This document shows positions 4,943 to 33,011 of a stretch of 64,000 nucleotides of DNA, in pieces. Made by a program: the position numbers and the translations under genes. Origin of the DNA: Candidatus Giovannonibacteria bacterium (GTDB taxonomy: Bacteria > Patescibacteriota > Minisyncoccia > UBA11713 > 2-01-FULL-45-33); NCBI GenBank assembly GCA_016176295.1, contig JACOXN010000004.1:6655-70654 (forward strand), written 5' to 3'. The stretch's first letter is position 1, and each line of letters begins with the position of its first letter. The notes beneath the pieces were generated by a model. The model made no database searches and had not been told where the DNA came from. It saw only the letters and a program-made list of their open reading frames with translations.

Positions 4943-6331
4943 TTGAAAGTGAAGAAATTGACGTTTGACGGCAAAGGCGAAATCGGGGGTTCCAATTACT
5001 GTTACAACGGTACTATCGGCGTCGACCACGGTGCTATCCAAGGAAAGAAGAAAATTTCATATCCCGCGCCAAACGGAGTGTCCCCGCTCGTTGTCATAGC
5101 CTCCCATTCTCACATTGATCACATCGGAGGATTCGCGTGCCTAGCAAAGCATCGTCCGGAAGCCAAATTCTTCATGACACAGACGACTCTGGACGGAATG
5201 ATATTGTTACTCAACGATTCTCTGAAGATCGCGCGTAGCCAGGCCGAGTTCAATTCACTGAAAGGGCTCCCGTCGGAGCCGCCGGCATTCGAAGAAGAAG
5301 ATATCAGTCACGTTGAAAGCCAAACCGAAATAATAAAAAATATCGGTTGGTTCGAACCCGTGAAAGGATATCATCTTTCACTCCGCTCCGCCGGCCACAT
5401 GCGCGGAGCATCCATTGAGCTCATGGTTACGCCGGACGGAACGAGAGTGGTTCACGCGGCGGATATCTCGGTGGAAGAGAGGGCTTTGGTAAGAGGGGCC
5501 GCGGTCCCGAAAGATTTCCTTAACCCGGATGTCCTGGTCATCGAATCAACTTACGGCTCGAAAGAACTCCCGGACCTAAAAGGAGAAAAAGATAAGTTGA
5601 TCTCCGTCACAAAGGAAACGCTCAAAAAAGGCGGGAGCGTCCTCGTCGGACATTTTGCCTCGATGCTGGACAACATAGTGATCCCTTTAGCTGAAGCTAA
5701 AATACAAGTTTATGTTGACGGCATGGGCAGACAATTTCTGAGAATTTACGCGGCGGCAAAAAACTGGTGCCCCGAAGACAGGCCGTTCTCGCTTTCCGGT
5801 TACGATAATGTACATTTCATCGATCCTGACCGCGGTACAGCGACAGCGCAGAGAAAAAAGCTGTTGAGTGGTAAGCTAAAAGGGGCCATTGTGTGTCCTT
5901 CCGGAATGTACGAAGGAGGACATTCGGTCACATACATCAAGCAATTAATGGAATCCCGCAAAAATACAATCATCATGCCGGGATTCCAGGCTGACGAAAC
6001 TCAAGGTCGGGAGATTCAGGAAGCTGAGTCCGGAGACCTGATCGATTTCAAATGCGAGCGCGTGATGAAAATAAACGAGAAAAAAGAGGCGAAAGAATGG
6101 CATGAGTACCGAAGGCTAAACGCGCCTGTCGTACAAATAAAATACTCCGGCCATTCAGGCGGCGATAAAATGGCCAAGTGGGTCGCCGAGCTCAACCCCA
6201 AAAAAGTGGTAACTGTGCACGGCGATCCGGAGGGACATGAGGGGCTAAAAGACCGGATCCATCGCCTGAACAGAAATATCGATGTCGTGCGGGCAACCGG
6301 CGAGACAATCAAGTTCTCTTTTCGCAGTTAA
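4943..6331 (+). CDS. MBL-fold metallo-hydrolase, beta-CASP RNA-metabolising family (RNase J/CPSF-like), paralog 1
   Basis: HSHIDHIGG (HxHxDH) motif. 462 aa. A terminator hairpin follows. Confidence 0.6.
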   Translation: MKVKKLTFDGKGEIGGSNYCYNGTIGVDHGAIQGKKKISYPAPNGVSPLVVIASHSHIDHIGGFACLAKHRPEAKFFMTQTTLDGMILLLNDSLKIARSQAEFNSLKGLPSEPPAFEEEDISHVESQTEIIKNIGWFEPVKGYHLSLRSAGHMRGASIELMVTPDGTRVVHAADISVEERALVRGAAVPKDFLNPDVLVIESTYGSKELPDLKGEKDKLISVTKETLKKGGSVLVGHFASMLDNIVIPLAEAKIQVYVDGMGRQFLRIYAAAKNWCPEDRPFSLSGYDNVHFIDPDRGTATAQRKKLLSGKLKGAIVCPSGMYEGGHSVTYIKQLMESRKNTIIMPGFQADETQGREIQEAESGDLIDFKCERVMKINEKKEAKEWHEYRRLNAPVVQIKYSGHSGGDKMAKWVAELNPKKVVTVHGDPEGHEGLKDRIHRLNRNIDVVRATGETIKFSFRS

Positions 6332-6417: not shown

Positions 6418-7607
6418 ATGGCAATAACAAAAATTGGGTTCTTGGGTCATTTCTACCAACCGCCGACACAGCCGTGGGAAATTATATTGCAAATCTATCG
6501 GGAGTGCTACAAAAAGGTTTTTGACTCTGCCTCGCGGCTGGATGGGTTTGCTTTCTCAATGGACCTCGCAAAAAGTCTCGGCGAAAGAATGCCGCCGGAA
6601 TGCATCGCGGCGATGTCCGAACTTTTTAAAAAAAGGCGGCTTGAGCTTGTAAACACCTCCGCTTATCATTATCTTCTCCCGCTAGTCCCGACTGCCGTTG
6701 CCGAACGCCAGCTAGAGCTCAACCGCGATTTTTACCGGAGCACTTTCGGGCCCGTAACCCACCCTGAAGGCTTTTTCCCTCCGGAACTTGCCACTTTTCA
6801 CTGGTTGTGGAATACAGTTTCCGATCAAAGGTACGACTGGTGCGTCGCCGACGACGAACTATTTAATTATACCCGCCCGCAATTCCCAGAGCACGAAAAG
6901 GTGCCGCAAAACTGGATACCGGAAATAGACTAATGCGGAATTCTTTTGAGATCGAGACACTGGTCCAACGTAATTTCGCGCATGCGGTACCCCGACGATC
7001 GGGAAGTTTCTTCCGGCGGAGAATTTCTCCGTGAAATGCTAGCCGGGCAAAGAGAATGGCGCGCGAAATGTGGAAACAACGGAAACAGCTATATTATTCT
7101 GGCTCTGGACATCGAAACCTTCGGCCACCACCACAAAGGAGCTGTGGAAAAATTTCTCATCCCCTTCTGGGAAGAAACTCGCCGTTTGAAAAACGAGTGC
7201 GAAATAGTCCCGCTTCGGTACATATTTGAGGAATTTTCCAAGATAGTTCTGGGCCGGGATGATATTTATCCTGGCTCGTAGTCGACTTCCAAAGAAGACC
7301 TGGCCCGCAACGATCTCTGGCCACTGTGGTGCAATCGGAAGAACACTTTCCACGGAGCCTGGAACGAATTCATCCGGCTCGTATATTTTCTCTCTCCAAA
7401 AAATCCACCCCAAGAACTTCAGAACCTGCTCGACAAAGCCTTTTACAGTTGTTCTCCCTGGTGGGCTATCCGCGAAAAAGGCGACCGTGGCTTCGCCGGG
7501 GCTTGTCTCCCAATGTTCAGGGAAATAATAAGGACACTCCACGACCATTCGCCGATAATGCGCCAGAATTTGGAGACCCTCGTACAAACGATGGAAAATT
7601 TTATCTA
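6418..7607 (+). pseudogene. GH57-family glycoside hydrolase gene interrupted by two in-frame stop codons (TAA 6931-6933, TAG 7279-7281)
   Basis: Same frame across the ORFs 6418-6933 and 6946-7281 and a further 108 sense codons to a TAA near 7605. GH57 conserved regions appear in order: HFYQP (region 1), LELVNTSAYHYLLPL (region 2), ALDIETFGHH (region 4), AFYSCSPWW (region 5-like). The minus ORF 7039-7587 is the antisense shadow. Confidence 0.55.
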
Positions 7608-11009: not shown

Positions 11010-11980
11010 CCTGCCTACCGGCAGGCAGGTACGCTAGAAGTATTAGCAGCTAACAGTACCAAACGGGTATGTACACACATCTTAAGCGCGATCAACGTAT
11101 CGCGCTAGCCGCTCTCCTGCGGTCCGGATATTCACGGCGGCAAGCGGCAAAAGAAATCGGCGTAGATCACACAACGGTCGGCAGAGAAGTTACGCGCAAC
11201 CCGATAACTCTCGGGCGGTACCATGCCGGACACGCCGACGTTCTGGCGCGAATGAGAAGGAAAAGGTCGAGAATGGCTTATCGGACCATAGAAAACAATC
11301 CTGAGCTTGTATTGCGTATCGAAAAGCGCCTTCATCCGCTGGTTTCTCCCGAGGTCATCGCGCATGATGAAAGCATCAGTCATGTCACTGTTTATGCCTG
11401 GATTTACCGTTCCCGCCCGGATTTGCTTTTGCGTCTCCCACAGAGAGGAAAGAAACGCAGGCGTTACGGGTCAAAAAGAGCCGGAAAACAGGGCTGGACA
11501 ACAAAAGTTCGCCCCATTGATGCACGGCCCGCAATCATCGATCAACGATTACGTGTGGGAGATTTTGAGGGTGATACCGTCAGAGGTAAGAACGGATCTT
11601 TGCTTACCCTCACGGACAGGAAAAGCCGTTTTGAAGTTGTCGTAAAAATGCCCGGCGACTATTGCGACCTGGTGCATGCCGCCATTGTGAAGATCCAGCG
11701 CAAGGTTTTTGCCAAATCTTATACTTTCGACAGGGGTTCTTGTTTTTCTCTTTGGCCTATGATTGAGCGGGATGCAGGAGTGCGAGTATATTTTGCTCAT
11801 CCGCGTTCACCTTGGGACCTGTCGTGGCATGGCCGCAATAATTATTACGCTCCCGATAGCGGCAGCTCCACGACCACATTTTCTGAAATACTAAAATCCT
11901 ATGCCTACGAAGGCAGCGGAAAAAATTATACTTTCCTGACAATTACCCGCGAGCTGAAGCCTGAGGAGGCACAAAAATGA
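11010..11980 (+). mobile_element. IS30-family insertion sequence, probably degenerate (no right inverted repeat found)
   Basis: Transposase gene plus an upstream 20-nt near-palindrome (11010-11029). The downstream ORF overlaps the transposase stop, and no inverted copy of the left-end sequence was seen within 450 bp downstream. Confidence 0.35.
11069..11980 (+). CDS. IS30-family transposase (DDE region partly diverged)
   Basis: N-terminal HTH (LKRDQRIALAALLRSGYSRRQAAKEIGVDHTTVGRE). IS30 signature VGDFEGDTVRGKNGSLLTLTDRKSRF. C-terminal YFAHPRSPW matches IS30 YFAxPYSPW, but the second D/E region reads FDRGSCF and the NENTNG region is degraded. Confidence 0.75.
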   Translation: MYTHLKRDQRIALAALLRSGYSRRQAAKEIGVDHTTVGREVTRNPITLGRYHAGHADVLARMRRKRSRMAYRTIENNPELVLRIEKRLHPLVSPEVIAHDESISHVTVYAWIYRSRPDLLLRLPQRGKKRRRYGSKRAGKQGWTTKVRPIDARPAIIDQRLRVGDFEGDTVRGKNGSLLTLTDRKSRFEVVVKMPGDYCDLVHAAIVKIQRKVFAKSYTFDRGSCFSLWPMIERDAGVRVYFAHPRSPWDLSWHGRNNYYAPDSGSSTTTFSEILKSYAYEGSGKNYTFLTITRELKPEEAQK

Positions 11981-12423
11981 ATAAACCGGCAATTGCAGGC
12001 TTAATCTGCCTTGCTGTGCTGGGCATATTCTATCTTGCCTGCGTCCATTATCTTGAGCCAAACCAAGTCGGGATTGTCCGGAACAGGTTCACCGGCGAAG
12101 TCCGATTAGATGATCAGGCCAGTTTTGATATTACGCCTCCGTGGATAGCGGTGTCGCGAATTGACATTCGTCCGATGCGAGTGTGCATAACATCGGCCAG
12201 CCGCGGATTTAACTGCAAACTGATCCAGTTCGCGCCTGCGCACTTCAAGGAATTTGTGCTAGTACAAGGGTTTCATTACTACTGGTGGGCCAACCGCATA
12301 TCCTTCAACTTTGGTTACAACGAAGAGTACCGCGGCATGAAAGATCTGCTCAGAGGTTATGCCTACGGCACAAAACAATATCCTTTCGTGAAAATTTTGC
12401 GTGACTACAAGGAAGAAGAATAA
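11977..12423 (+). CDS. hypothetical membrane-anchored protein, N-terminal region weakly SPFH/band-7-like
   Basis: N-terminal TM helix, then EPNQVGIVRNRFTGEV resembling the SPFH start. ATGA overlap with the transposase stop. Confidence 0.35.
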   Translation: MNKPAIAGLICLAVLGIFYLACVHYLEPNQVGIVRNRFTGEVRLDDQASFDITPPWIAVSRIDIRPMRVCITSASRGFNCKLIQFAPAHFKEFVLVQGFHYYWWANRISFNFGYNEEYRGMKDLLRGYAYGTKQYPFVKILRDYKEEE

Positions 12424-12434
12424 TACATTATCCG

Positions 12435-13925
12435 CTACAGCTCGGCTGGGGCGGATTTTTCTTTAGGCTGGTAATCCTTAAATTGTTCAAGCTCCCCCAT
12501 TTTTGGAAGGAGCATTTTAACGGCGCGCCGCCGCGCGATATTCCATGACTGCCATTTTGCGAATGATTCCGAACCGCCCCTCTGATAAAGTTCTTTTCCA
12601 AGATAATTCCTGAACTCCCGGTCATTTGTATTTAAAGCTCCAACGAGCTCCGGCATGGCGTCATCCGAGAGCCCGCTCAAATACCGGACATCGATTTTGC
12701 CGGTGGTTTCGAAACGCTCCAGATTACGCCGGGCAATGAAGGAGTCCGGATCCATCATGTTCATGCCAAAAACAAACAAGTTGAATGTAACGAAAACTCC
12801 GAGAGCAAAATAATTCTCTCTGCCATTCCGCAATGTCTTCCAAGCGAGGAGACAGAATATAATCCCCAGTAAAATAATGAAAGAATGGCTGAATAATCTC
12901 TGGACGGTAAATCCATATGCTTCTTCATAGAGCGAAAGCCTGGCATACGCCGAAAACATGATAACCAATACCTCTGCAATCAGCGCGGCACACAGGAATT
13001 TGAATTCCACAGCATGTCCGCCATTTTCTTTGTAAACCAGCTGATCCGCTGCAAGAAGCAGGAACAAAGAAATTAGCGCCACTACGATGAGTTCGAAAAA
13101 CCCGCGTCTTGCATATTCAGCGTAAGTGAACCCCGCTGAAATGATGTTGCTTTCGCCTCCGAAAAAGTAGGCAACCTGAATGATGATAAATATCAGAAAA
13201 AGAACGTCTACGGACCCGAACAGAATGTAACTTTCTATTCTGCCGAGAGGCCCGCCGGGCCTTACGTTTTCTCCTTCTTTTGCTTCCGCACTTTTTTTCT
13301 TTTCCCTTTCCCCTAAAATGTAGGAATAAGCGCCGGTAAACGCCAGGAAGACGGCGAGTATAAGTATCGTTCTTACGACTATTTCCCCATTTATCTCAAT
13401 GGAAACGAGGTTCGAAATGTATTTTTCAAAAACAAGATCTGCCGAGGAAAAAAGCAAAAGAAAAACAAAAAGAAAAGGGGCAGCAATAAGGATGCCTTTT
13501 AGTACGTGCGAAACGGTTTTTTCTTTTCGGGGGCGCGGGGCGGCAAGTTTCGAGAGAGTTTTCCAAAGCGGAGCCAAAAATTTAAAAGGGAGCAGCACTA
13601 TCTTAAGGTAATCAAGCATAAAAAAACTGCGGAGCCTGTCTCCGAAAGAAACCTCGGCGATAAGCAGCAGCAACCCCAATGAAGCGGCAATGTTCAAAAG
13701 CATAAGCTCCGGGCTCGCTCGTACTGACAGCATCGCGCTAAAGAAGAATAACGGAGCCATGAGCCACAATGCTTCGCGGCTAAGGGACCTGCCGAAAAAT
13801 TTTACGATAAGAAATAGCCCACCGACCACAAAAAGATTAAAGATTAAAAAAGAAAGACCGGGAATCTTATCGAAGAACAAATAGTTGAATAATATGCCCA
13901 AAAACAGGGAAAAACCCGGAATCAT
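12435..13925 (-). CDS. polytopic integral membrane protein (about 10 or more TM helices, family uncertain, DUF4173-like)
   Basis: 496 aa, many hydrophobic segments, cytoplasmic charged C-terminus. Same strand and directly downstream of the Cys-rich secreted protein. Confidence 0.5.
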   Translation of the reverse strand: MIPGFSLFLGILFNYLFFDKIPGLSFLIFNLFVVGGLFLIVKFFGRSLSREALWLMAPLFFFSAMLSVRASPELMLLNIAASLGLLLLIAEVSFGDRLRSFFMLDYLKIVLLPFKFLAPLWKTLSKLAAPRPRKEKTVSHVLKGILIAAPFLFVFLLLFSSADLVFEKYISNLVSIEINGEIVVRTILILAVFLAFTGAYSYILGEREKKKSAEAKEGENVRPGGPLGRIESYILFGSVDVLFLIFIIIQVAYFFGGESNIISAGFTYAEYARRGFFELIVVALISLFLLLAADQLVYKENGGHAVEFKFLCAALIAEVLVIMFSAYARLSLYEEAYGFTVQRLFSHSFIILLGIIFCLLAWKTLRNGRENYFALGVFVTFNLFVFGMNMMDPDSFIARRNLERFETTGKIDVRYLSGLSDDAMPELVGALNTNDREFRNYLGKELYQRGGSESFAKWQSWNIARRRAVKMLLPKMGELEQFKDYQPKEKSAPAEL

Positions 13926-13962: not shown

Positions 13963-15582
13963 TTACCGATTACCCCACCAATTGAGGATGGAGTGGTAGA
14001 CGGAGCTCAACAATAATTTGGGGTTTAAGAGGGAGATTGGGCTTGAAGTCTCGAACGGAAGCGGCGTTGGCTCGGTCGCGGGAGGCGGAGTTTGGTAATC
14101 TCCCTGTGGAGGCGTCTGAAAGTCCCCGGGAGGAGGAGCGTAACTTCCCGATGGCGGCTGCTGATAGCCAGCAGGAGGCTGCTGAAAGCCATCGGAAGGC
14201 GGCCTCTGAAAGTCGCCCGGAGGTGGAATTAACGAACCGCCGCCTGAAGGAGGGACTCCGCATTCATTGGGGTGAGAGCTGCAGTAAGCCTGACATTCTT
14301 CTGGAGTTGAACATCCTCCCGGACCGCTGAACTGACCGGAACCGGAAAAACCTCCCTCCGAATCGCCACGAGGAGGAGCAAATGAACCGCCACCTGAAGG
14401 AGGGGCTCCGCATTCATTGGGGTGAGAGCTGCAGTAGGCCTGGCATTCCTCAGGGCTAGTGCATCCGCCAGGACCACCAAATTGGCCAGAACCTCTAAAC
14501 TCGTCCGAGCCCGCTCCCGGTCCGCCAAATCCGCCGGGCCCACCGGAACCCGGACCGTCCTGCCCGCCCATCGAGCCGAATTTCTCAAAACAACTCTTCA
14601 TTTTTTCTCCGGCCTCGCGGGAAGGTTTCACTTGGGATAAATCGCCTAAGATTTCAACCAGGCAAGCCTTTACCGCTTCGGGAGCATTATTGATATTTTC
14701 CATAAACATCTTTGACCCTTCCTCCATTTTTTTTATTTCTTCTTCCGATATAAGCCCGTTCTCTTTTCCGAACTGGAAACAAGCTTCCTGGTTGTCCGGG
14801 TTTCCGCAGAACGCTTCGCATTCTTCTTTACCTTTGCAACCTCCGGGACCGCGCCCTTTCGTTTTTTTCATCATTTCAAATTGTTTTTGGTCAATGAACC
14901 CGGCCGCAACCGCGAAATTGGCGCACTCTTCGATATTTTTTTCATCGGAACAATAGGCATCGCATTCTTCTTTGCCGCGACAGTTCGGCGGTTTTACTCC
15001 GTTTCTCACAGCCGCCAGCATTTTTTCGGCGTCCGCGCGTTCCTGTTCGTCCATTAGGCCGGCTTTCAAGGCAAAATTCATACATTCCTCCATGTGCTCT
15101 CCCGCACCGCAATAGCTGTCGCAAGCGGCTTTGTTATTGCATGCCGGAGGCTTAATACCCTGCCTGATGGCAGCCGCCACTTTTTTTGCCTCGGCTAAGT
15201 CCTTTTGCGGCATAATATTATTTTCTTCGGCAAAGGCGACGCATTCTTCTATGTGACTGATGTCATTGCAGAAATTTTCGCATTTATCTTTCGTGGTACA
15301 CCCGCCGGGGCCCTTCATCTCTCCCGCCGTAATTTTCCGCGCGAGCGCGGCTTCTTCCCGCGACATCAAATTATTCTTTTCGGCGAAACTTATGCAGGCA
15401 GGCGCATTATCGGGAACATCACAGTAGGTTTTGCATGCTTCTTTATCGGCGCAATTTCCAAGCTCTGCAACAGGAAACTGAATATTGTCGGCCTGGGCTA
15501 GAGCATAACCTATCATAAGCAAAGACGCGGCCACACTTAAAGCCAATGCTAAAAAAGAAGAATATTTTTTCATGTTATTCAA
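13963..15582 (-). CDS. secreted modular Cys-rich repeat protein (seven C-x5-C-x3-C-x7/8-C modules, RGD, Pro/Gln-rich tail), putative surface adhesin
   Basis: Signal peptide MNNMKKYSSFLALALSVAASLLMIGYALAQA. Modules: CADKEACKTYCDVPDNAPAC, CTTKDKCENFCNDISHIEEC, CNNKAACDSYCGAGEHMEEC, CRGKEECDAYCSDEKNIEEC, CKGKEECEAFCGNPDNQEAC, CTSPEECQAYCSSHPNEC (x2), each followed by FA..G(L/F). Gly-rich linkers. APPRGDSEGG. PPxGD(F/Y)QxPP repeats. Confidence 0.7.
   Translation of the reverse strand: MNNMKKYSSFLALALSVAASLLMIGYALAQADNIQFPVAELGNCADKEACKTYCDVPDNAPACISFAEKNNLMSREEAALARKITAGEMKGPGGCTTKDKCENFCNDISHIEECVAFAEENNIMPQKDLAEAKKVAAAIRQGIKPPACNNKAACDSYCGAGEHMEECMNFALKAGLMDEQERADAEKMLAAVRNGVKPPNCRGKEECDAYCSDEKNIEECANFAVAAGFIDQKQFEMMKKTKGRGPGGCKGKEECEAFCGNPDNQEACFQFGKENGLISEEEIKKMEEGSKMFMENINNAPEAVKACLVEILGDLSQVKPSREAGEKMKSCFEKFGSMGGQDGPGSGGPGGFGGPGAGSDEFRGSGQFGGPGGCTSPEECQAYCSSHPNECGAPPSGGGSFAPPRGDSEGGFSGSGQFSGPGGCSTPEECQAYCSSHPNECGVPPSGGGSLIPPPGDFQRPPSDGFQQPPAGYQQPPSGSYAPPPGDFQTPPQGDYQTPPPATEPTPLPFETSSPISLLNPKLLLSSVYHSILNWWGNR
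14222..14469. repeat. ~148-bp tandem duplication inside the Cys-rich gene (near-identical ~70-bp cores at 14232-14301 and 14380-14449)
   Basis: gaaccgcc(g/a)cctgaaggagg..ctccgcattcattggggtgagagctgcagta(a/g)gcctg..cattc occurs twice, encoding the two GC(T/S)(S/T)PEECQAYCSSHPNECG modules. Confidence 0.6.
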
Positions 15583-15805
15583 AAGGGTTAGTTTTAACTG
15601 ATTTAAAAGGGTTGGCTTTGTTTACCGGATTCAAGTCCGGAGCATTTTCCAGAGGCTTATCATTTACGCTGGAACCCGCATTTTGCACGACTACGGTCTC
15701 CAGCGCGGGCGCCGGAATAGGCTTACTGGAATAAGTTAGATAAACGTAATAACCGGCTACTAAAATTATGACCGCGCCGAGCGCGATGGCTGCTTTTTTA
15801 TTCAT
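15575..15805 (-). CDS. small single-pass membrane protein (N-terminal TM, NPF-repeat tail), overlaps the Cys-rich gene start by 8 nt
   Basis: MNKKAAIALGAVIILVAGYYVYL ... NPFKSVKTNPFE. Confidence 0.4.
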   Translation of the reverse strand: MNKKAAIALGAVIILVAGYYVYLTYSSKPIPAPALETVVVQNAGSSVNDKPLENAPDLNPVNKANPFKSVKTNPFE

Positions 15806-15830
15806 AACTAAATTATGGCATCTGGAGAAA

Positions 15831-16394
15831 ATGTGTCGAGAGCCAAATGTGCACTGCTTGTTTTATGGCTTATTTTCTGATAACATATATTCGTTGCTGA
15901 AAATAAATAATTTCATACGGGCTTCTGAAGTGAGGGTCATCGACGAGGAAGGCAAGAACCTCGGAGTTTTGCCTTTGGAAAAAGCCCTGCAAGTAGCCCG
16001 CGAAGCCGGACTCGACCTCATTGAAGTTTCCTCCAATGTGGTTCCCCCCATCACTAAAATAATGGATAAAGGGAAATATCTTTACGAACAGGATAAAAAA
16101 AAGCGCCAAGCGGCCAAAAACCGTAAGGAAGTCGAAATAAAGAACGTCCGCATCGGCATCGGAACAGGCGCGCATGACCTCGAATTAAAAGCCCGCCAAA
16201 TAGATGAATTTCTGAAAGAAGGAAACCGCGCGCAGGTGGAACTCCGATTGAAAGGCAGGGAAAAATATCTGAAAAAAGAGTTTCTGGAAGAGCGTATCCA
16301 GCGGGTTCTCAATATGGTTTCACAGCCATTCTCGATCGAACCCGTCAAAAAAGGCCCGAGGGGTCTGATGCTCACTATCGCACCCAAAAAGTAG
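15831..16394 (+). CDS. infC: translation initiation factor IF-3 (start uncertain: ATG 15831, or non-AUG TTG 15894 / ATA 15903)
   Basis: INNFIRASEVRVIDEEGKNLGVLPLEKALQVAREAGLDLIEV ... NVRIGIGTGAHDLELKARQIDEFLKEGNRAQVELRLKGRE matches IF-3. infC classically uses an unusual start codon. Confidence 0.8.
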   Translation: MCREPNVHCLFYGLFSDNIYSLLKINNFIRASEVRVIDEEGKNLGVLPLEKALQVAREAGLDLIEVSSNVVPPITKIMDKGKYLYEQDKKKRQAAKNRKEVEIKNVRIGIGTGAHDLELKARQIDEFLKEGNRAQVELRLKGREKYLKKEFLEERIQRVLNMVSQPFSIEPVKKGPRGLMLTIAPKK

Positions 16395-25208: not shown

Positions 25209-26564
25209 CTACAACTCAACACTCTCGCCGTATTTTGGCGCATAGGCTTCGATGCCCATATAATCGCGGATGGTTTGCACCAGATTGAACGAAGACCGCG
25301 GCTCGCCGTGCACCAGAAAAACTTTTTTTAAAGTGTCGGCTTTTCCCTGCACAAAATTGAAAAGATCTTCTTTGTCGGGGTGCGCCGAATATCCGTTTAT
25401 TTCTTCAATATGGCAATTGACCGGGACTTCATCTCCGAAAAGTGTTACAGTCTTTGCGCCGTCCCTGATGCGGCGGCCCAGAGTTCCCGGAGCCTGGTAA
25501 CCGACAAAAAGTATGGTATTTCTCGAGTCTTTCAGATACCGGCGCTCGTGGTGAAGTATCCTTCCGCCCGTAGACATCCCGGAACCGGCAATTATTATTT
25601 TGGGCGCGGAGACATTATTTATTTCCTTGGATTCTTCGGTGGTCAATGTGAATTTAACGTCGGGAACGCTAAAAAAAGAAAATGAGCCCGTCTGCCCGAA
25701 AGCTTTTTTCAGGTGGGTATCGTAATATTTTTGATAAATTTTTGTGGCTTTTATGGCAAGCGGACTATCGAGAAAAATGGGGATCTCTGGTATCTGTTTT
25801 TCTTTGAGCATGCCGGATATTTCCCAAAGCAGCTGCTGCGTCCTCTCTAGTGAAAAAGCCGGGATCATCAAAACTCCTCCCCGCCCGACACTTTTTTCTA
25901 TAACTCGCTCCAATTTGAGCCTCCTCTCCGCTTCGCCTTCGTGGTCGGTATCGCCATATGTCGATTCAGCCACCAAGAACTGCGGGCCAAGCGGAGTTTC
26001 TTTCACTTCTATCAATGGATTGCTAGGGTTCCCGAGGTCGCCCGTGAAAAGCGCCTTTGTCGCCCCTTCTTCGACAAGCAACATTGAAGAGCCCAGAATA
26101 TGCCCGGCATTGTAAAGCGTCACCGTAAAACTCCCCGCGGCTATTTTTTCCATGTAATTTTTCCCCTCCCACATACCGATCGCGCGCGACACATCCTCCT
26201 CGGAATAAAAGACCTCCTCCTTTTCGCGCGAGGCTTCTTTAGTCATTACGCCCAGGCTGTCGGAAAGCATCAGCTCGCCCAGATCTTTTGTGGGAAGCGA
26301 GGAATAAATTTTCCCCATGAAACCGTCTTTAACAAGCTTGGGGATCCTTCCGGTGTGGTCCAAATGCGCGTGAGTTATGAAAAGCGCTTCAATGCCCGCG
26401 GGGTCGAACGGAAACTTTTCACGGTTGCGGTCATCGCAAAATTTATGGCCGCCCTGGAAAAGACCGCAATCTATTAGTATTTTATCTTTCGCCGGAGATC
26501 CTGATTCAAGAAGAAAACAGCTTCCGGTCACTTCCTCCGCCGCGCCATAAAATGTAAGTTTCAT
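25209..26564 (-). CDS. MBL-fold metallo-hydrolase, beta-CASP RNA-metabolising family, paralog 2
   Basis: HAHLDHTGRIP HxHxDH motif, 451 aa. Same architecture as the gene at 4943-6331. Confidence 0.65.
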   Translation of the reverse strand: MKLTFYGAAEEVTGSCFLLESGSPAKDKILIDCGLFQGGHKFCDDRNREKFPFDPAGIEALFITHAHLDHTGRIPKLVKDGFMGKIYSSLPTKDLGELMLSDSLGVMTKEASREKEEVFYSEEDVSRAIGMWEGKNYMEKIAAGSFTVTLYNAGHILGSSMLLVEEGATKALFTGDLGNPSNPLIEVKETPLGPQFLVAESTYGDTDHEGEAERRLKLERVIEKSVGRGGVLMIPAFSLERTQQLLWEISGMLKEKQIPEIPIFLDSPLAIKATKIYQKYYDTHLKKAFGQTGSFSFFSVPDVKFTLTTEESKEINNVSAPKIIIAGSGMSTGGRILHHERRYLKDSRNTILFVGYQAPGTLGRRIRDGAKTVTLFGDEVPVNCHIEEINGYSAHPDKEDLFNFVQGKADTLKKVFLVHGEPRSSFNLVQTIRDYMGIEAYAPKYGESVEL

Positions 26565-27596: not shown

Positions 27597-28472
27597 TTAT
27601 TCGAAATACCAGGAGATAGCTCCGCCGGTAATTTCAAAAATAACCGTCCCGTCGCGGTCCGTGCGGAAAATTTTTGAGCCGACTGAAGCCAGGCGCGTCA
27701 TCGCTTCGCTTGTCGGATGACCATAATTATTTTTACCGACGGAGATAACGGAATATTCCGGCTTAACCTTCCGCAAAAACACGTCCGAGCTTGAATTCTT
27801 AGAGCCATGGTGCCCGACCTTGAGCACATCCACGTCGTCAATAAGCCCCCGCCACGATAAGGCGGCCTCAAGGCCTTTCTCGGCGTCTCCCATAAACATG
27901 ATCTTTTTGCTCTCGAAAATAAGTTCCGCGACCAACATTGCATCGTGAGCGTTCTTTAAGGATCTCCCTTCGAATGAAACATCCGGATAAAGGAATTTAA
28001 TTTCACCTCCGTTAAAGAAAGAAAGTTTGGTCGGCCCTTTCACGTCGATCTTTTTTACTCCTTTAGAAAAAATAAGTCTTTCAAATTCACCGGCTTCGGA
28101 GGTATTATATTCCATCCCGCTTTCAAAAACAGCGCCGACCTCATAACGCTTCAGAACTTCAATCAATCCGGAGACATGGTCTTTATGCGGATGAGTTAAG
28201 ATTACCGCGTCAATGGAACGGTCGTAATAAGGCATGACTGATCCAAGTTTCGAAAGCACCTGCGAATTGGGCCCGCCGTCTATCAAGACCTGAGTGCCGT
28301 CGCGCGCCTGGATAAAAATAGAATCCCCCTGTCCGACGTTCAGAAAATAAACGGCAAGGTCGGGTTCACTCTCTTTTTCAAATACCGCCTGCCAAATAAT
28401 AAGGTTCGACGCGGCCAAAACAAAAAATAATATCCAGAGCCCTTTTTTGTAATAACTTTTAAACACGCTCAT
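27597..28472 (-). CDS. ComEC C-terminal MBL-domain protein (separate ORF with its own TM anchor)
   Basis: LTHPHKDHVSGL, GDSIF, VGHHG. ATGA-type 4-nt overlap with the upstream ComEC membrane-domain ORF. Confidence 0.7.
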   Translation of the reverse strand: MSVFKSYYKKGLWILFFVLAASNLIIWQAVFEKESEPDLAVYFLNVGQGDSIFIQARDGTQVLIDGGPNSQVLSKLGSVMPYYDRSIDAVILTHPHKDHVSGLIEVLKRYEVGAVFESGMEYNTSEAGEFERLIFSKGVKKIDVKGPTKLSFFNGGEIKFLYPDVSFEGRSLKNAHDAMLVAELIFESKKIMFMGDAEKGLEAALSWRGLIDDVDVLKVGHHGSKNSSSDVFLRKVKPEYSVISVGKNNYGHPTSEAMTRLASVGSKIFRTDRDGTVIFEITGGAISWYFE

Positions 28473-30145
28473 GTTTGCAACCGGTTAGAACTCCTGAAAC
28501 GGATCCATGACCAATAAAAAAGCGCGGCATAAATAAAAAGAAGAAGGGATATGGGTAAAAAGCCGAACTTAATCATGCTGAATGAAAGACCCCCGAAAAA
28601 ATTAACCAGATATATCTGATAAGCAATCAGTATATACGCCGCGCCCGCAATTATTTTACCCAACCCGAGCGAGAAAAAAGAGAAAATACCCCCCAAAAAA
28701 CCAAAAAGCATTACCAAAGGCACGACACTGGCGATGAGTATATTCGCCAGGGGAGAAAGCCAAGAAATTTCCCCGCCCCAGGAAAGGAGAAGCGGCAAAA
28801 CGAATATCTGCGCCGCGAATGACGCGGCGGCGTTTTCCCTTAGCCCCAAAGTTTTTGGAATGAAAGAGAATATTTTTTGGAAAAAAGAAGAAGCGATAAT
28901 AAGCCCCAAAGTCGCCAGGAACGAAAGCTGGAAACCCCGGTCAAACCGCATGAGGAGCGGATTCCAAAGAACCATGAACATTGCGGCCCACATGAGCGCG
29001 AGAAGCGCGGTGTTTTTTCTGCCTGCGCGAAAAGCCAAAAGGCCGATAACAGCCATGAGGGCGGACCGCACCGCCGCGGCCTCGGCTCCCGACATCAATG
29101 TAAAAGCCGATATCGCGGCCACGGCCAAAAGCCAGGCAACGCTTTCCGGAAATATCATGCCGAAAAGCGCCATGGTGAAAATACCCACGATGGTTATGTT
29201 GTAGCCGGAAAGAACAAGTATGTGAATAGTTCCGCTTTTCCGGAAATTATCTACGAGCCCTTTTTCCAAAAAACCCTGATTTCCCAAAAGCATGCCGTCG
29301 GCCAAAGAGGCATGCGGTTCCGGCAAAATCAGGCGCAATTTTTTCTCAAAACCGTCTTTGACCATGAAAAGAAAACTGAAAAATTTGATTTTTAGAGAAG
29401 AAAACCTTGCAGTTGAATTTTCAGATGCGAGATTTTCTTTTTTCTCGATTTCCGGAAAGATCATTTCTGAATAAACTAAGTCTTTTGCGAGAAGTTTTTT
29501 ATTGTCTATAGCGCCGAAAACCTCGGGCTCTTCGATTTTGCCCGATATTTTGAGGGTGTCCCCGTATTTATACTGTGGATAGACCGCTTTCACCACCCGG
29601 AGCTTCCCCAGACCGGTTTCCACTATCAGTTGCTCGCTGTTCGGTTTGGGGATGCTTTTTAAAACTGCTCCGTCCAAAACCATTTCTTCTCCATAATGGA
29701 GATGAAGAAAATCATCTTGGATATTGTTTTCGTAAAGATCGAAGCGAAGAATGCCCAGGAAAAAAAGAAACACGACAAGCGACATTTTTTTTAGAAAAAA
29801 TTTTCCTGAAAATTCATTGCCCGCAACTTCCGTTTCGCTCGGTCTTAACCCTCCCTCGCCAGCTCGGGGGGCTCCGACCTGCCTACCGGCAGGCAGGCGC
29901 GCCTCGCACTCCGAAAGTTGCGGGCAATTTGTTAAATTTCCAGGAGAAATCGACGGTTGAGACTTGGCTCTTTCCAGAATAAATGAAAATAACAAAATAC
30001 CGCCGGTTAGTCCGATGCCAAGGTAAACCCATTCACTCGGAATGTTGAAAAAAGACCGGGAAAATACTCCGGCGAGAAAAGATATCAGAAATAATGCGAT
30101 GCGCGCCACGGGCGAATCGTAGCAAAGTCCTTCATTTAATTCCAC
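28469..30145 (-). CDS. comEC: DNA internalisation-related competence protein ComEC/Rec2 (membrane + competence domains)
   Basis: 558 aa, N-terminal DUF4131-like region and a polytopic competence domain. Contains a low-complexity in-frame insert ARLPAGRQVGAPRAGEGG encoded over the 20-nt repeat. Confidence 0.75.
   Translation of the reverse strand: MELNEGLCYDSPVARIALFLISFLAGVFSRSFFNIPSEWVYLGIGLTGGILLFSFILERAKSQPSISPGNLTNCPQLSECEARLPAGRQVGAPRAGEGGLRPSETEVAGNEFSGKFFLKKMSLVVFLFFLGILRFDLYENNIQDDFLHLHYGEEMVLDGAVLKSIPKPNSEQLIVETGLGKLRVVKAVYPQYKYGDTLKISGKIEEPEVFGAIDNKKLLAKDLVYSEMIFPEIEKKENLASENSTARFSSLKIKFFSFLFMVKDGFEKKLRLILPEPHASLADGMLLGNQGFLEKGLVDNFRKSGTIHILVLSGYNITIVGIFTMALFGMIFPESVAWLLAVAAISAFTLMSGAEAAAVRSALMAVIGLLAFRAGRKNTALLALMWAAMFMVLWNPLLMRFDRGFQLSFLATLGLIIASSFFQKIFSFIPKTLGLRENAAASFAAQIFVLPLLLSWGGEISWLSPLANILIASVVPLVMLFGFLGGIFSFFSLGLGKIIAGAAYILIAYQIYLVNFFGGLSFSMIKFGFLPISLLLFIYAALFYWSWIRFRSSNRLQT
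29878..29897. repeat. 20-nt near-palindrome CCTGCCTACCGGCAGGCAGG, second exact copy at 11010-11029
   Basis: Exact 20-mer occurs twice in the window: once ~40 bp upstream of the IS30 transposase gene and once in-frame inside comEC. Confidence 0.5.
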
Positions 30146-30155
30146 TGCCGCCTAT

Positions 30156-31154
30156 TCAGGCGTGTTCATTTAAATATTTAAGAAGATCGGGCAGAGCCTT
30201 CCGAGCCTGCTCTTCGGAACCGAAGGGCGCAGAGCCGACGTACGCATGCCCTCCGCCTCCGTAATTTTTTTCGAGGAACCAGCCGATCTCCGCCGGTTTT
30301 TTCGGGCTGTTCCACGGATTCACGCCGACAGCCAAGATAAAATTTTTCCCGTGGCGGACGAGCCTGACCGAGTAATTGGCTTTGGTATAAAAATAGTACG
30401 GCGCGAAGCGGATGCCTATCAATTTTCTTTCCAAATTTTCAATGAAAATAGTATTACCTCTGATTTCCAGTTTTTCTTTCATCTTCTGCAGAGATTCATC
30501 GAACTTTTTTTTGCATGTTAGAAAACCTTTTTTAACCCAGGGCAGGTCCACGGCATCCGCCAGCGATTTTTTGCTCAATGTATTGATAAGCTGTTTTTGC
30601 CGGCTGCGGGATATATTGTTTTCATTATCGAGAAAAAAGCCGATCTTTAAAGCCGGATATTTTAATTCAAGCAGATCCTTTACGGAAATTTGCTTCGGGT
30701 TGACGCGGTCCAGAATATCGCTCCACTTGGTCATTTCCCGAAGCCGAGCCGGTATCTTGGACCTTGCGGCCCCCGAAAGCGAGCTTAAGATAAGCCCCGC
30801 GCATGACGGCCTTGCCGGGTCGAACACATGCAGCTTTGCATCATCCAAATTTTTTCCGGCGGGTTTATATGAACCGGCCCATTCGCTGTCGATGAACGTA
30901 GTATCGTGATGGTCGAACCAGATCTTCGCCCCGGGATGATAAAGAATATCCACGATGGCAGATGTTTTTTTTAATTTCTCGCCTTTCCACCAGTTCTTAT
31001 CAACGGGGTGCTGGAGTGGAATGTAACGGGCGAAATCATCTCCCCGCAAATTTAAAAAATATTTAAGAACAGCCGCCGATACGGTCCCATCCAAGCAATT
31101 TTCATGATAATAAATGTCGTATTTCATATTAAGTAGCCGATCTGCCGCAGCCAA
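30156..31154 (-). CDS. DHH-DHHA1 family phosphoesterase (NrnA/RecJ-like)
   Basis: HENCLDGTVSAAVL (motif I), WFDHHDT (DHH), NYGGGGHAYVG (DHHA1 GGGH). Confidence 0.7.
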   Translation of the reverse strand: MAAADRLLNMKYDIYYHENCLDGTVSAAVLKYFLNLRGDDFARYIPLQHPVDKNWWKGEKLKKTSAIVDILYHPGAKIWFDHHDTTFIDSEWAGSYKPAGKNLDDAKLHVFDPARPSCAGLILSSLSGAARSKIPARLREMTKWSDILDRVNPKQISVKDLLELKYPALKIGFFLDNENNISRSRQKQLINTLSKKSLADAVDLPWVKKGFLTCKKKFDESLQKMKEKLEIRGNTIFIENLERKLIGIRFAPYYFYTKANYSVRLVRHGKNFILAVGVNPWNSPKKPAEIGWFLEKNYGGGGHAYVGSAPFGSEEQARKALPDLLKYLNEHA

Positions 31155-31936
31155 TAATCATTTTCCCATTCCCAGAGAGTTTTTGCCGCGAGAAAAGCCT
31201 TAATGTCGCGGTACGGGTAAGGAAACTCTCGAAGCTCAACCACGCCTTTCGTCGGGCCCCAGAAGTGGTCCCCGTGCGCCGACCCGCAATTTTTGGCCGG
31301 AGCCGCATTCCTTCCCTGCCAGGCCGTCCTCACCTTATTGCGGCCGCCTTTTTCCCGCAGAGTGGAGCCGCACCGCATACAATTTTTAACCTGGTCTACC
31401 CTCAAGATCCAGCGAGTCTGGATATCTTTGGGAAGAGCAAGAGAGTTTTTTACTTCGCGCTCCTGCAAAGCCAGAACGTAAGCCGCCGTCTGCAGATTGT
31501 AGTCGGAATAAAACCCCGTAGAGGTCTTGATATCCAGCACGCCGAACTTTCCGTCTATTGAAGCGAGAGCGTCCACCGTGCCGGAATATTTGTGGATACC
31601 TGACCAAATAGAGCGCTCCACGAATTCAGGATGAAAAAAAATATTCCTAGTTTTGTTAAATTCCTCGAAAGCCTCCACCACGGGCCGCATTTCTTCAGTA
31701 ACCATGTAGGGCTCCCCCACGGCGGTCTTCTGGATAGCTTCGTGGACTCTTGTCCCTTCTTCCGCCGAGCGCATTTTGACCTCTTCCGCGGCGGCGTAGG
31801 ACTCCATCTCTTTCATAAACATATCAATGGCCGGTTTTGATTTTATGGACAAAATTTTCGTGACACGCGGAAACCACTGGCCATTTACATTGTGCCCCGA
31901 TTCTTTCATAAATTGTTCAGCGTCCCTGTACCACAT
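31124..31936 (-). CDS. PD-(D/E)XK (RecB/Cas4-like) nuclease-fold protein with C-terminal Cys cluster
   Basis: GTVDALASIDGKFGVLDIKTS ... QTAAYVLAL ... CMRCGS ... NCGSAH. Confidence 0.5.
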   Translation of the reverse strand: MWYRDAEQFMKESGHNVNGQWFPRVTKILSIKSKPAIDMFMKEMESYAAAEEVKMRSAEEGTRVHEAIQKTAVGEPYMVTEEMRPVVEAFEEFNKTRNIFFHPEFVERSIWSGIHKYSGTVDALASIDGKFGVLDIKTSTGFYSDYNLQTAAYVLALQEREVKNSLALPKDIQTRWILRVDQVKNCMRCGSTLREKGGRNKVRTAWQGRNAAPAKNCGSAHGDHFWGPTKGVVELREFPYPYRDIKAFLAAKTLWEWENDYWLRQIGYLI

Positions 31937-32003
31937 GAAGAATATATTAGCTTAAAAATCTTCTATACACAAATAAAAAAGCGGCGATTATGCCGCTTGT
32001 GTT

Positions 32004-33011
32004 TCATGCGCCTGAATTATTTGACCGGATGCGTCTTTGTTCTTTCATGAGTTTGTTCTCGGCAATCGCCAAAGTCCAATAAAGTTTTGACTCTTCCGGC
32101 GAGAGCCTTTTTTCTTCCAAAAACAGTAAGGCGTCATCGACCCCGTAACAATTAAAAATATTCTCTGTGTCGAGCAACACGGAAATTTCATTTGGGAACA
32201 GATGACGCTCATGGCAAGCAGGGAAATTACCGACAAAAAACTTTTTTTTCTCCGCCTGGGCAGCGTGGATGACATAGTGCGGATATGGCGCTTCAGAACT
32301 GGCGAACTGCTCAGCACTAACGGCATATCGCCAGTGTGACGCTTCGGACCTGTTCACGAAGAACCTAAAGCCTTTTTGATATAAATCACTCAACTTATGC
32401 ATATCTCCATGGGTAAACCCAAAAACAGTTTCGTCCTCGGGTCTAAAAAGACTTACATGGGTTGCCCCAACTTCTGGCGCTCCTGAAACCTGAAATCTAT
32501 ATTTTTCGTCCGAATATTTGACCACAAAGAGCCCGGTTCCGGTATACGCATAGTCCGTTTTGGAACAATCCGCCAACCCGACATATTCGGTATTTCGGTC
32601 ATCGTCCAGTTTACGCAAAAGACCTTTGGTTTGGGTGTATTTTGAAGCCAGTATTGAAGTGGTTGTATTGAACAGTAAGATTTTTACTCCCAGCATTCCG
32701 GACAGTATATCGCGTTGCGCCATTATGCGGTGGATCACTTTTTCCTGGTTTTCAGAAAGCTCATTTACTGGAATATTGCGAGCCCCCGAATGGCCGCCTC
32801 TGCGACGAAGCGTATACCCCCAACTACCCGGCGCAAAAACTTCAAGCTCGACATCTCTTTTGTTGTTATCTCCGCCGTCCTCGAGCCTGTGGCCAAAAAT
32901 ATGACCATTGGAAGCAATAGTAAACACTAAAGTTCCTTTTTCCGTTTGTAGATATGGAATATTCTCCACTTCCACAACGGCTTTTGCCTGTAAAACTCCT
33001 GTAAACTCCAT
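32004..33011 (-). CDS. hypothetical protein, 335 aa, no recognisable family
   Basis: Long ORF with normal composition, co-directional with the nuclease/DHH/comEC block. No motif I can name. Confidence 0.5.
   Translation of the reverse strand: MEFTGVLQAKAVVEVENIPYLQTEKGTLVFTIASNGHIFGHRLEDGGDNNKRDVELEVFAPGSWGYTLRRRGGHSGARNIPVNELSENQEKVIHRIMAQRDILSGMLGVKILLFNTTTSILASKYTQTKGLLRKLDDDRNTEYVGLADCSKTDYAYTGTGLFVVKYSDEKYRFQVSGAPEVGATHVSLFRPEDETVFGFTHGDMHKLSDLYQKGFRFFVNRSEASHWRYAVSAEQFASSEAPYPHYVIHAAQAEKKKFFVGNFPACHERHLFPNEISVLLDTENIFNCYGVDDALLFLEEKRLSPEESKLYWTLAIAENKLMKEQRRIRSNNSGA

What the first reader, a model, noticed from the sequence alone, without database searches (positions are those of the whole stretch)
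13963..15805. Secreted modular Cys-rich repeat protein with RGD and Pro-rich tail, plus small TM partner: candidate surface adhesin
The 539-aa protein has a signal peptide, then seven modules with the fixed pattern C-x5-C-x3-C-x7/8-C followed by FA..G(L/I/F). That is four Cys per module, so two disulfides in a knottin-like mini-domain. Modules are separated by charged helical linkers, then Gly-rich low-complexity segments, an RGD tripeptide and PPxGD(F/Y)QxPP repeats. I cannot match the Cys spacing to a named domain. It is co-oriented and overlapping with a 76-aa single-pass membrane protein upstream and followed by a 496-aa polytopic membrane protein, suggesting a surface-structure operon. 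For an episymbiotic lifestyle such a protein is a plausible host-attachment factor.
Basis: partly seen in the sequence, partly recalled or inferred. Interest (0 to 1): 0.7.

Follow-up and report, generated by a model that had tools for sequence, protein, structure and literature searches.

The report
Parcubacterial secreted cysteine-repeat protein pair
This is a real exported protein built from small four-cysteine helical repeats, always encoded directly behind a tiny membrane protein; the pair is conserved across Parcubacteria (candidate phyla radiation) and matches no described family, so it is an uncharacterised cell-envelope component, not a demonstrated adhesin.

Summary
Window 13963..15582 (-) encodes a protein with a Sec-type signal peptide, five 48-53-aa C-x5-C-x3-C-x8-C modules, two short C-x5-C-x3-C-x6-C modules, a Gly/Pro/Gln-rich tail and a C-terminal amphipathic helix. 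The 76-aa membrane protein lies directly upstream.

The small upstream gene sits directly upstream on the same strand in 84 of 84 relatives' loci that have room for it. It ends in a near-invariant NPLxNKPDxNPxxKxNPFKxxKTNPF(E/K) peptide.

The downstream DUF4153 gene is not conserved with the pair, and the RGD occurs in 1 of 120 homologues.

In the one genome pair compared, the helical domain is 74% identical, against 35-60% for IF3, L35, L20 and PolX. Modules keep their order and identity between species. This argues against a fast-evolving host-specific adhesin.

Best reading: a conserved extracytoplasmic two-protein envelope scaffold, probably disulfide-stapled. The function is untested. Partner binding, disulfide versus metal chemistry and partner topology are unresolved.

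The parts
13963..15582 (-). Gene for the Cys-repeat protein (539 aa from the annotated TTG; probably 536 aa from the ATG at 15573)
   Evidence: ORF. It is 100% identical to NCBI HYT01_00765. More than 2,373 homologous clusters were found.
15496..15582 (-). Sec-type signal peptide, residues 1-29 (MNNMKKYSS / FLALALSVAASLLMIGY / ALA|Q)
   Evidence: The n-h-c layout and the -3/-1 Ala residues can be read directly from the sequence. The same layout occurs in 118 of 120 homologues. There is no twin-arginine motif and no lipobox Cys. SignalP could not be run.
14695..15474 (-). Five long modules (residues 37-296; boundaries 15316-15474, 15157-15315, 14998-15156, 14854-14997, 14695-14853). Each is C-x5-C-x3-C-x8-C followed by F(A/G)xxx(G/N)(L/I/F) and a charged helix.
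   Evidence: AF2 pLDDT is above 90, with three helices per module. Most relatives have six such modules.
14563..14694 (-). Helical cap region (residues 297-340) with a conserved lone Cys pair, C307 and C331
   Evidence: Helices 302-312 and 322-336 have pLDDT above 90. Both Cys are at least 90% conserved.
14248..14562 (-). Gly-rich disordered region carrying two short modules, C-x5-C-x3-C-x6-C (residues 374-391 = 14410-14463; residues 424-441 = 14260-14313). The RGD lies at 14362-14370.
   Evidence: The two short modules are a tandem duplication (14213-14343 and 14363-14493, 80% nucleotide identity). Homologues carry 0-4 short modules.
14038..14247 (-). Pro/Gln/Gly-rich low-complexity spacer (residues 446-515) with PPPGDFQxPP and G(F/Y)QQPP units
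   Evidence: pLDDT is below 50. There is a 21-24-nt periodicity in the DNA.
13966..14022 (-). C-terminal amphipathic/hydrophobic helix (residues 521-539, LLNPKLLLSSVYHSILNWWGNR)
   Evidence: AF2 predicts helix 521-538. A similar ~15-residue helix follows the last Pro in most relatives, and the last three residues include K or R in 152 of 265.
15575..15805 (-). Gene for the 76-aa partner: an N-terminal membrane helix (residues 5-25, 15731-15793) and a conserved C-terminal NP-rich peptide (residues 50-76, 15578-15658, KPLENAPDLNPVNKANPFKSVKTNPFE)
   Evidence: The partner family has at least 422 clusters. It lies directly upstream on the same strand in 84 of 86 loci, and the other two have no room upstream.
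15812..15839 (-). Promoter-like site TCGACA-16 nt-(TG)CATAAT, ending 7 nt before the partner's ATG
   Evidence: 10 of 12 positions match, with an extended -10 TG. This is a consensus match only; the number of such sites in the region equals the shuffle expectation.

Best explanation
The two genes encode a Parcubacteria-wide extracytoplasmic protein pair.

Shown:
- The large protein has a Sec-type signal peptide.
- Its mature part starts with a conserved IQ(Y/F)PVxELGNC.
- It then forms an elongated all-helical array of five (usually six) three-helix modules, each with four invariant cysteines.
- The array is followed by a helical cap with one more Cys pair, a disordered Gly/Pro/Gln-rich spacer and a short amphipathic C-terminal helix.
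- The small protein is a single-pass membrane protein whose last ~27 residues are nearly invariant.
- The two genes are separated by 1-5 nt in every locus examined.

Inferred:
- The cysteines form two disulfides per module after export. CPR bacteria carry MdbA-like and VKOR proteins that could do this.
- The helical array is a rigid protein-binding scaffold held at the cell surface through the spacer and C-terminal helix.
- The partner's NP-rich tail, or its membrane helix, is the array's tether or ligand.
- The complex serves a conserved envelope function (spacer, scaffold or organiser of the wall or surface layer) rather than recognising a particular host.
For: - Export signal in the window protein and in 118 of 120 homologues.
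- Module cysteines are invariant. Cysteine counts are even in 112 of 120 homologues, and there is a conserved lone Cys pair, which would fit a disulfide more readily than a metal site.
- The signal has no twin arginine, so the chain crosses the membrane unfolded.
- Méheust 2019 (PMC6744442) reports MdbA-like oxidoreductase and VKOR families enriched in CPR.
- AF2 gives pLDDT 90 over residues 30-340, all helical.
- The partner gene lies directly upstream in 84 of 84 informative loci, from genomes named for at least a dozen Parcubacteria-type candidate phyla. The gap is 1-5 nt. No other neighbour is conserved.
- The helical domain is 74% identical between the Giovannonibacteria and Liptonbacteria genomes, against 35-60% for IF3, L35, L20 and PolX.
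- Same-position modules are 67% identical between species. Different modules within one protein are 35% identical.
- 3 of 9 long relatives carry a C-terminal Laminin_G_3 domain, which I take as typically extracellular (my knowledge). All 9 have a hydrophobic, signal-like N-terminus on reading.
Against: - No experiment or direct computation shows that the two proteins bind. A complex could not be modelled.
- The partner's topology is undecided. Net flank charges are +2.0 (N side) and +1.7 (C side), and there are more K+R on the C side, so its conserved tail could be cytoplasmic.
Four Cys per module could instead bind a metal.
- pTM of the trimmed model is only 0.63, so the relative orientation of modules, and hence rigidity, is uncertain.
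- The C-terminal helix is too short and too polar for a standard membrane span in most members, and some members lack it.
- The conservation comparison rests on one genome pair.
Confidence: 0.5

Rival explanations
1. Host-attachment adhesin. The helical Cys array is displayed on a Pro-rich stalk and binds a host-cell surface molecule, and the small protein helps to anchor or present it.
For: Exported, modular architecture with a long spacer. Some relatives add a Laminin_G_3 binding domain. Many CPR bacteria are thought to live attached to hosts (general knowledge; Méheust 2019, links CPR-enriched families to cell-cell interaction).
Against: The presumed binding domain is more conserved than the ribosomal proteins compared. 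Modules are position-specific orthologues across candidate phyla, not a shuffled or expanding array. The RGD is unique to this one protein. Hosts of Parcubacteria are presumably diverse (my assumption), so a common ligand would have to be universal. No adhesin family matched.
Confidence: 0.2
2. Extracellular metal-binding or redox protein. Each four-Cys module binds Zn, Cu(I) or an Fe-S cluster, so the array stores or sequesters metal or relays electrons.
For: There are four invariant Cys per module, including a C-x3-C on one helix. The C-x5-C-x3-C spacing also occurs inside SPASM and some ferredoxin motifs (papers listed). His is conserved before the fourth Cys in half of the modules. The organisms come from anoxic groundwater.
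Against: The Sec-type signal has no twin arginine, so an Fe-S cluster could not be exported pre-assembled. The modules are all-helical, unlike ferredoxin or SPASM folds. The His position alternates with Asn, as expected for a helix cap rather than a ligand. The lone conserved Cys pair in the cap and the even Cys counts fit disulfides. No metal-binding family matched in Pfam, NCBIfam or the PDB.
Confidence: 0.12
3. Peptide-receptor pair. The small protein is a precursor whose conserved C-terminal peptide is released and sensed by the helical-repeat protein, as a signalling system.
For: A helical-repeat protein is encoded next to a small ORF that has an N-terminal hydrophobic segment and a conserved extreme C-terminus. 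The weak, non-significant fold hits are to Rgg, AimR and PlcR-type repeat receptors.
Against: Those fold hits have E > 1 and TM < 0.2. The large protein has no DNA-binding or signalling output domain and is itself exported. The peptide is almost identical across candidate phyla, the opposite of pheromone diversification. No processing site or protease is conserved nearby.
Confidence: 0.06
4. Three-gene surface operon that includes the DUF4153 polytopic membrane protein (12435..13925 -).
For: The gene is co-oriented, with a 37-nt gap and no strong terminator between it and the Cys-repeat gene in this window.
Against: DUF4153 is absent downstream in all four contigs read in full. No downstream family is shared by more than 7-10 of about 70-80 loci. 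An IS30-like gene lies next to it here.
Confidence: 0.03

Closest known systems
Helicobacter cysteine-rich proteins (Hcp) and other disulfide-bridged Sel1-like repeat proteins such as COA7
   Same: Exported or oxidising-compartment proteins made of tandem short helical repeats, each stapled by conserved cysteines, that act as protein-binding scaffolds (my knowledge). COA7 (7mqz) appears among the Foldseek hits.
   Different: Sel1-like repeats have two helices, about 36 aa and one disulfide per repeat. This family has three helices, 48-53 aa and four Cys per module. There is no Pfam Sel1 hit. The COA7 hit has E = 8.2 and probability 0.07.
Gram-positive wall-spanning surface proteins (sortase substrates)
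   Same: N-terminal signal peptide, a functional ectodomain, a Pro/Gly-rich spacer, and a C-terminal hydrophobic segment that often ends in a basic residue.
   Different: No LPXTG-like motif was seen on reading the displayed C-termini. The terminal helix is about 15 residues and amphipathic. No sortase was found in window positions 1-42,285.
RRNPP-type receptor/propeptide gene pairs (Rgg/SHP, PlcR/PapR, AimR/AimP)
   Same: A helical-repeat protein is encoded beside a small gene with a hydrophobic N-terminus and a conserved C-terminal peptide.
   Different: RRNPP receptors are cytoplasmic transcription factors with an HTH domain, and their peptides diversify. Here the repeat protein is exported, has no HTH, and the peptide is near-invariant. 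Fold hits are not significant.
Secretoglobin / Fel d 1 fold
SPASM / ferredoxin-type Cys motifs
   Same: They contain a C-x5-C-x3-C spacing (papers listed).
   Different: Those are cytoplasmic Fe-S domains with other folds and further Cys. Here there is a Sec signal and an all-helical module, and no profile hit.

Membership tests
Knottin / cystine-knot mini-proteins | At least three disulfides forming a knot on a small beta-rich core | tested here: not met
   There are only four Cys per module. The AF2 modules are three helices with no beta-sheet.
Sec-exported proteins with a cleavable type I signal peptide | Basic n-region, hydrophobic h-region of about 15-20 residues, and small residues at -3/-1 | tested here: met
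   MNNMKKYSS-FLALALSVAASLLMIGY-ALA|Q. The same layout occurs in 118 of 120 homologues. SignalP itself was not available.
Tat-exported cofactor proteins | Twin-arginine motif (S/T-R-R-x-F-L-K) in the n-region | tested here: not met
   There is no RR in the n-region here, and none was seen in the 45 homologue N-termini displayed.
Sel1-like repeat proteins (Pfam PF08238) | Profile match to the Sel1 repeat; repeats of 36-44 aa with two helices | tested here: not met
   No Pfam hit at E <= 1 other than SHOCT at 0.22. The module is 48-53 aa with three helices.
SHOCT domain (PF09851) | Score above the Pfam gathering threshold (27 bits) | tested here: not met
   11.8 bits, E = 0.22, residues 226-240 only.
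LPXTG sortase substrates | LPXTG-like motif, followed by a hydrophobic span of about 20 residues and a basic tail | tested here: not met
   The C-terminus is ...PISLLNPKLLLSSVYHSILNWWGNR. No LPXTG-like motif was seen on reading the displayed C-termini of this protein and relatives; the helix is about 15 residues.
Fe-S / SPASM-type Cys-cluster domains | Profile match to a known Fe-S domain; cytoplasmic or Tat location | tested here: not met
   No Pfam, NCBIfam or PDB match. Sec signal present. Actual metal content cannot be tested with these tools.
Disulfide-stabilised extracytoplasmic protein | Cys pairs within bonding distance in the fold, and oxidised in vivo | not testable with these tools
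Indirect support only: even Cys counts in 112 of 120 and a lone conserved pair, and CPR MdbA/VKOR families (PMC6744442).
Conserved two-gene cassette (Cys-repeat protein + NP-tail membrane protein) | Partner gene immediately upstream on the same strand | tested here: met
   Found in 84 of 86 loci; the other two have fewer than 135 nt upstream. Adjacent NCBI locus tags agree.
Operon with DUF4153 (PF13687) | DUF4153 gene conserved next to the pair | tested here: not met
   DUF4153 is present here but not in other loci.

The most novel reading that the evidence does not exclude
The pair is a previously undescribed, lineage-defining envelope complex of Parcubacteria. A new type of disulfide-stapled three-helix repeat ectodomain captures the invariant NP-rich C-terminal peptide of its co-translated membrane partner. 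The resulting surface scaffold would be as conserved as core housekeeping machinery and required for envelope integrity or for the cell-cell contact that these ultra-small bacteria depend on.
Probability: 0.3. Interest if true: 0.75.

Novelty: new variant of a known kind. Interest (0 to 1): 0.55.

Why it matters
Parcubacteria are a very large, uncultivated part of bacterial diversity, and their envelope and way of life are poorly understood. Most CPR-enriched protein families have no annotation (PMC6744442).

This gene pair is found in genomes named for at least a dozen Parcubacteria-type candidate phyla. In the one genome pair compared, it is under stronger constraint than the ribosomal proteins compared, and it is predicted with high confidence to adopt a fold with no solved relative.

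That makes it three things: a concrete target for structural and localisation studies, a possible lineage marker, and a candidate domain family for Pfam/InterPro. It also corrects the easy assumption that any secreted repeat protein in an episymbiont is a host adhesin.

Tried and rejected
1. Pfam, NCBIfam and PDB sequence searches found nothing. These used the protein, the five-module profile, the 118-sequence profile and the partner profile.
3. I looked for a larger operon by clustering all flanking ORFs from 80 loci, including small downstream ORFs. Only the partner gene is conserved.
4. I tested whether the number of NP motifs in the partner's tail tracks the number of modules. There is only a weak trend, confounded by phylogeny, so I did not use it.
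5. I looked for natural fusions of the partner's motif to the large protein. There were none among about 270 relatives.
6. I tried to assign the partner's topology by the positive-inside rule. The result was inconclusive.
7. I looked for Dsb/MdbA, VKOR or sortase genes in window positions 1-42,285. None was found.
8. Literature searches found no description of this family. Terms used: Patescibacteria or Parcubacteria with cysteine-rich, disulfide or signal peptide, and CX5CX3C. The 2026 CPR pilus preprint concerns unrelated Ig-like pilins.
9. TRF did not detect the 150-nt duplication in the tail. The repeat finder did.

Full report
**What is there**

Window 13963..15582 (- strand) holds a 539-aa ORF from a TTG start. 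It is identical to NCBI hypothetical protein HYT01_00765 of a Candidatus Giovannonibacteria bacterium.

The pattern C-x5-C-x3-C-x(5-9)-C occurs seven times, at residues 44, 95, 148, 201, 249, 374 and 424. In 20,000 shuffles of the protein, 98% gave no match and none gave more than two. The first five matches have x8 as the last spacing and are followed by F(A/G)xxx(G/N)(L/I/F) and a charged helix. The last two have x6 and sit in Gly-rich low-complexity sequence. Two further cysteines, C307 and C331, form a conserved lone pair.

The RGD (residues 405-407) and two PPPGDFQxPP units are present. The two short modules are a 150-nt tandem duplication with 80% nucleotide identity.

Homologues begin MKKY..., so the real start is probably the ATG at 15573. 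That is one base after the TAA of the upstream 76-aa gene, 15575..15805. The genes therefore abut rather than overlap.

**Export**

I could not run SignalP. The N-terminus is nevertheless a textbook Sec signal: MNNMKKYSS, then a 17-residue hydrophobic core, then A-L-A|Q. 118 of 120 homologues have the same layout, followed by a conserved mature N-terminus IQ(Y/F)PVxELGNC. There is no twin arginine and no lipobox.

**Family**

The protein search found more than 2,373 clusters, all unnamed or 'hypothetical' and none with a precomputed Pfam domain. A five-module profile searched against 1.84 billion representatives found 1,770 proteins at E <= 1e-3 and 1,462 at E <= 1e-10. The module is therefore essentially confined to this multi-module family.

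A scan of GTDB species genomes found 291 loci. Their records name Lipton-, Nealson-, Jorgensen-, Yanofsky-, Wolfe-, Kaiser-, Staskawicz-, Azam-, Gribaldo-, Brenner- and Magasanikbacteria, including a complete Wolfebacteria genome. Divergent long relatives that carry names are also Parcubacteria. A few records labelled Saccharibacteria, Gammaproteobacteria or Omnitrophica are probably mislabelled bins; I did not verify this.

Most relatives have six long modules and one or two short ones. Modules at the same position in different species are 67% identical, whereas different modules within one protein are 35% identical. This is an old, fixed array, not an expanding repeat.

**Structure**

AlphaFold2 with 118 sequences gives pLDDT above 90 for residues 30-335. 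The region is all helical, with three helices per module. Residues 346-520 are predicted disordered apart from the two short modules, and there is a terminal helix at 521-538. A trimmed model of residues 30-340 has mean pLDDT 90.3 and pTM 0.63, so inter-module geometry is less certain.

The 'knottin-like' description is therefore wrong. The module is a small helical unit with no described relative.

**Partner and context**

In four contigs read in full, a gene of 86-93 aa lies 1-5 nt upstream on the same strand, and nothing else is shared. An HMM of the partner finds it directly upstream in 84 of 86 loci. The two exceptions have no room upstream.

The partner family has at least 422 clusters. 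It consists of a membrane helix, a variable linker and a near-invariant C-terminus, NPLENKPDINPADKANPFKNIKTNPF(E/K). Its topology cannot be decided from flank charges.

Clustering of flanking ORFs shows no other conserved neighbour. The best family appears in 10 of 80 loci, and downstream in 7 of 67. The DUF4153 gene is thus a local neighbour only. An IS30-like gene lies beside it. The surrounding window is housekeeping: IF3, L35, L20, an ABC-3 transporter, PolX, SmpB, ArgRS, ComEC, glycolysis genes, SecY and ribosomal proteins.

**Function**

The following facts are shown:
- an export signal;
- invariant Cys quartets, and even Cys counts in 112 of 120 homologues;
- a long disordered Pro/Gly/Gln spacer;
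- a C-terminal amphipathic helix in most members;
- a strictly linked membrane partner;
- Laminin_G_3 domains on 3 of 9 long relatives;
- very strong constraint on the helical domain.

On the last point, the helical domain is 74% identical between the Giovannonibacteria and Liptonbacteria genomes. The same genome pair shows 39% for IF3, 35% for L35, 60% for L20 and 57% for PolX.

From these I infer a conserved extracytoplasmic scaffold. It is probably disulfide-stapled; CPR genomes are enriched in MdbA-like and VKOR proteins (PMC6744442). I infer that it is held at the surface and works together with the small membrane protein. I put this at about 0.5.

A host-specific adhesin is less likely (0.2), because the putative binding domain is too conserved and the RGD is unique to this protein. 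Metal binding remains possible (0.12), because the oxidation state of the Cys could not be examined. A pheromone-like peptide/receptor pair (0.06) and a DUF4153 operon (0.03) are unlikely.

**Novelty**

I found no description of either family in the searched literature or in the domain libraries. The general kind, an exported helical repeat protein stapled by cysteines (for example Sel1-like Hcp proteins), is known. The module, its fixed array and the obligatory partner are new. I rate it a new variant of a known kind, with interest 0.55.

Noticed in passing
window 11069-11980 (+): A 303-aa ORF with an HTH_38 domain and a weak integrase-core (rve) match, consistent with an IS30-like transposase. 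It lies next to the unannotated 148-aa ORF (11977-12423) and the DUF4153 gene, which suggests a local rearrangement.
   Followed up: partly
window 14213-14343 and 14363-14493: A 131-nt direct repeat at 150-nt spacing with 80% identity: a recent tandem duplication of the short Cys module. Relatives carry 0-4 such modules, so the tail evolves by duplication while the N-terminal array is fixed.
   Followed up: yes
window 15571-15582: The database annotation starts the large gene at a TTG that overlaps the partner gene. Homologues start MKKY..., which favours the ATG at 15573, one base after the partner's stop codon.
   Followed up: partly
window 15812-15839 (-): A promoter-like site with an extended -10 (TG-CATAAT) ends only 7 nt before the partner's ATG. 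The transcript could therefore be leaderless or nearly so. This is a consensus match only.
   Followed up: no
window 30156-33011 (-): Three consecutive ORFs (332, 270 and 335 aa) directly downstream of the ComEC-like competence gene (28469-30145) have no Pfam match.
   Followed up: no
window 4943-6331 (+) and 25209-26564 (-): Two separate metallo-beta-lactamase/beta-CASP/RMMBL genes (RNase J/CPSF-like) lie within 20 kb of each other.
   Followed up: no
window 6418-6933 (+): A 171-aa ORF matches only positions 52-174 of the 291-position Glyco_hydro_57 profile. It may be a truncated or split gene.
   Followed up: no
relatives P0258, P0345, P0341 (and P0355, P0268): Longer family members carry an extra N-terminal segment of about 130-170 residues before the first module (P0258, P0345, P0341, P0355), and three of them (P0258, P0345, P0341) have a C-terminal Laminin_G_3 domain. 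Two (P0355, P0268) give marginal Kazal matches. P0278 has CPxDQYWNGTSC repeats in its tail, and P0268 one similar unit.
   Followed up: partly
loci L063, L072, L016 and others; P0014/P0194: Contigs carrying the pair are labelled Gammaproteobacteria, Saccharibacteria or Omnitrophica in their records. Their sequences are typical of the Parcubacteria family, so the bins are probably mislabelled.
   Followed up: no
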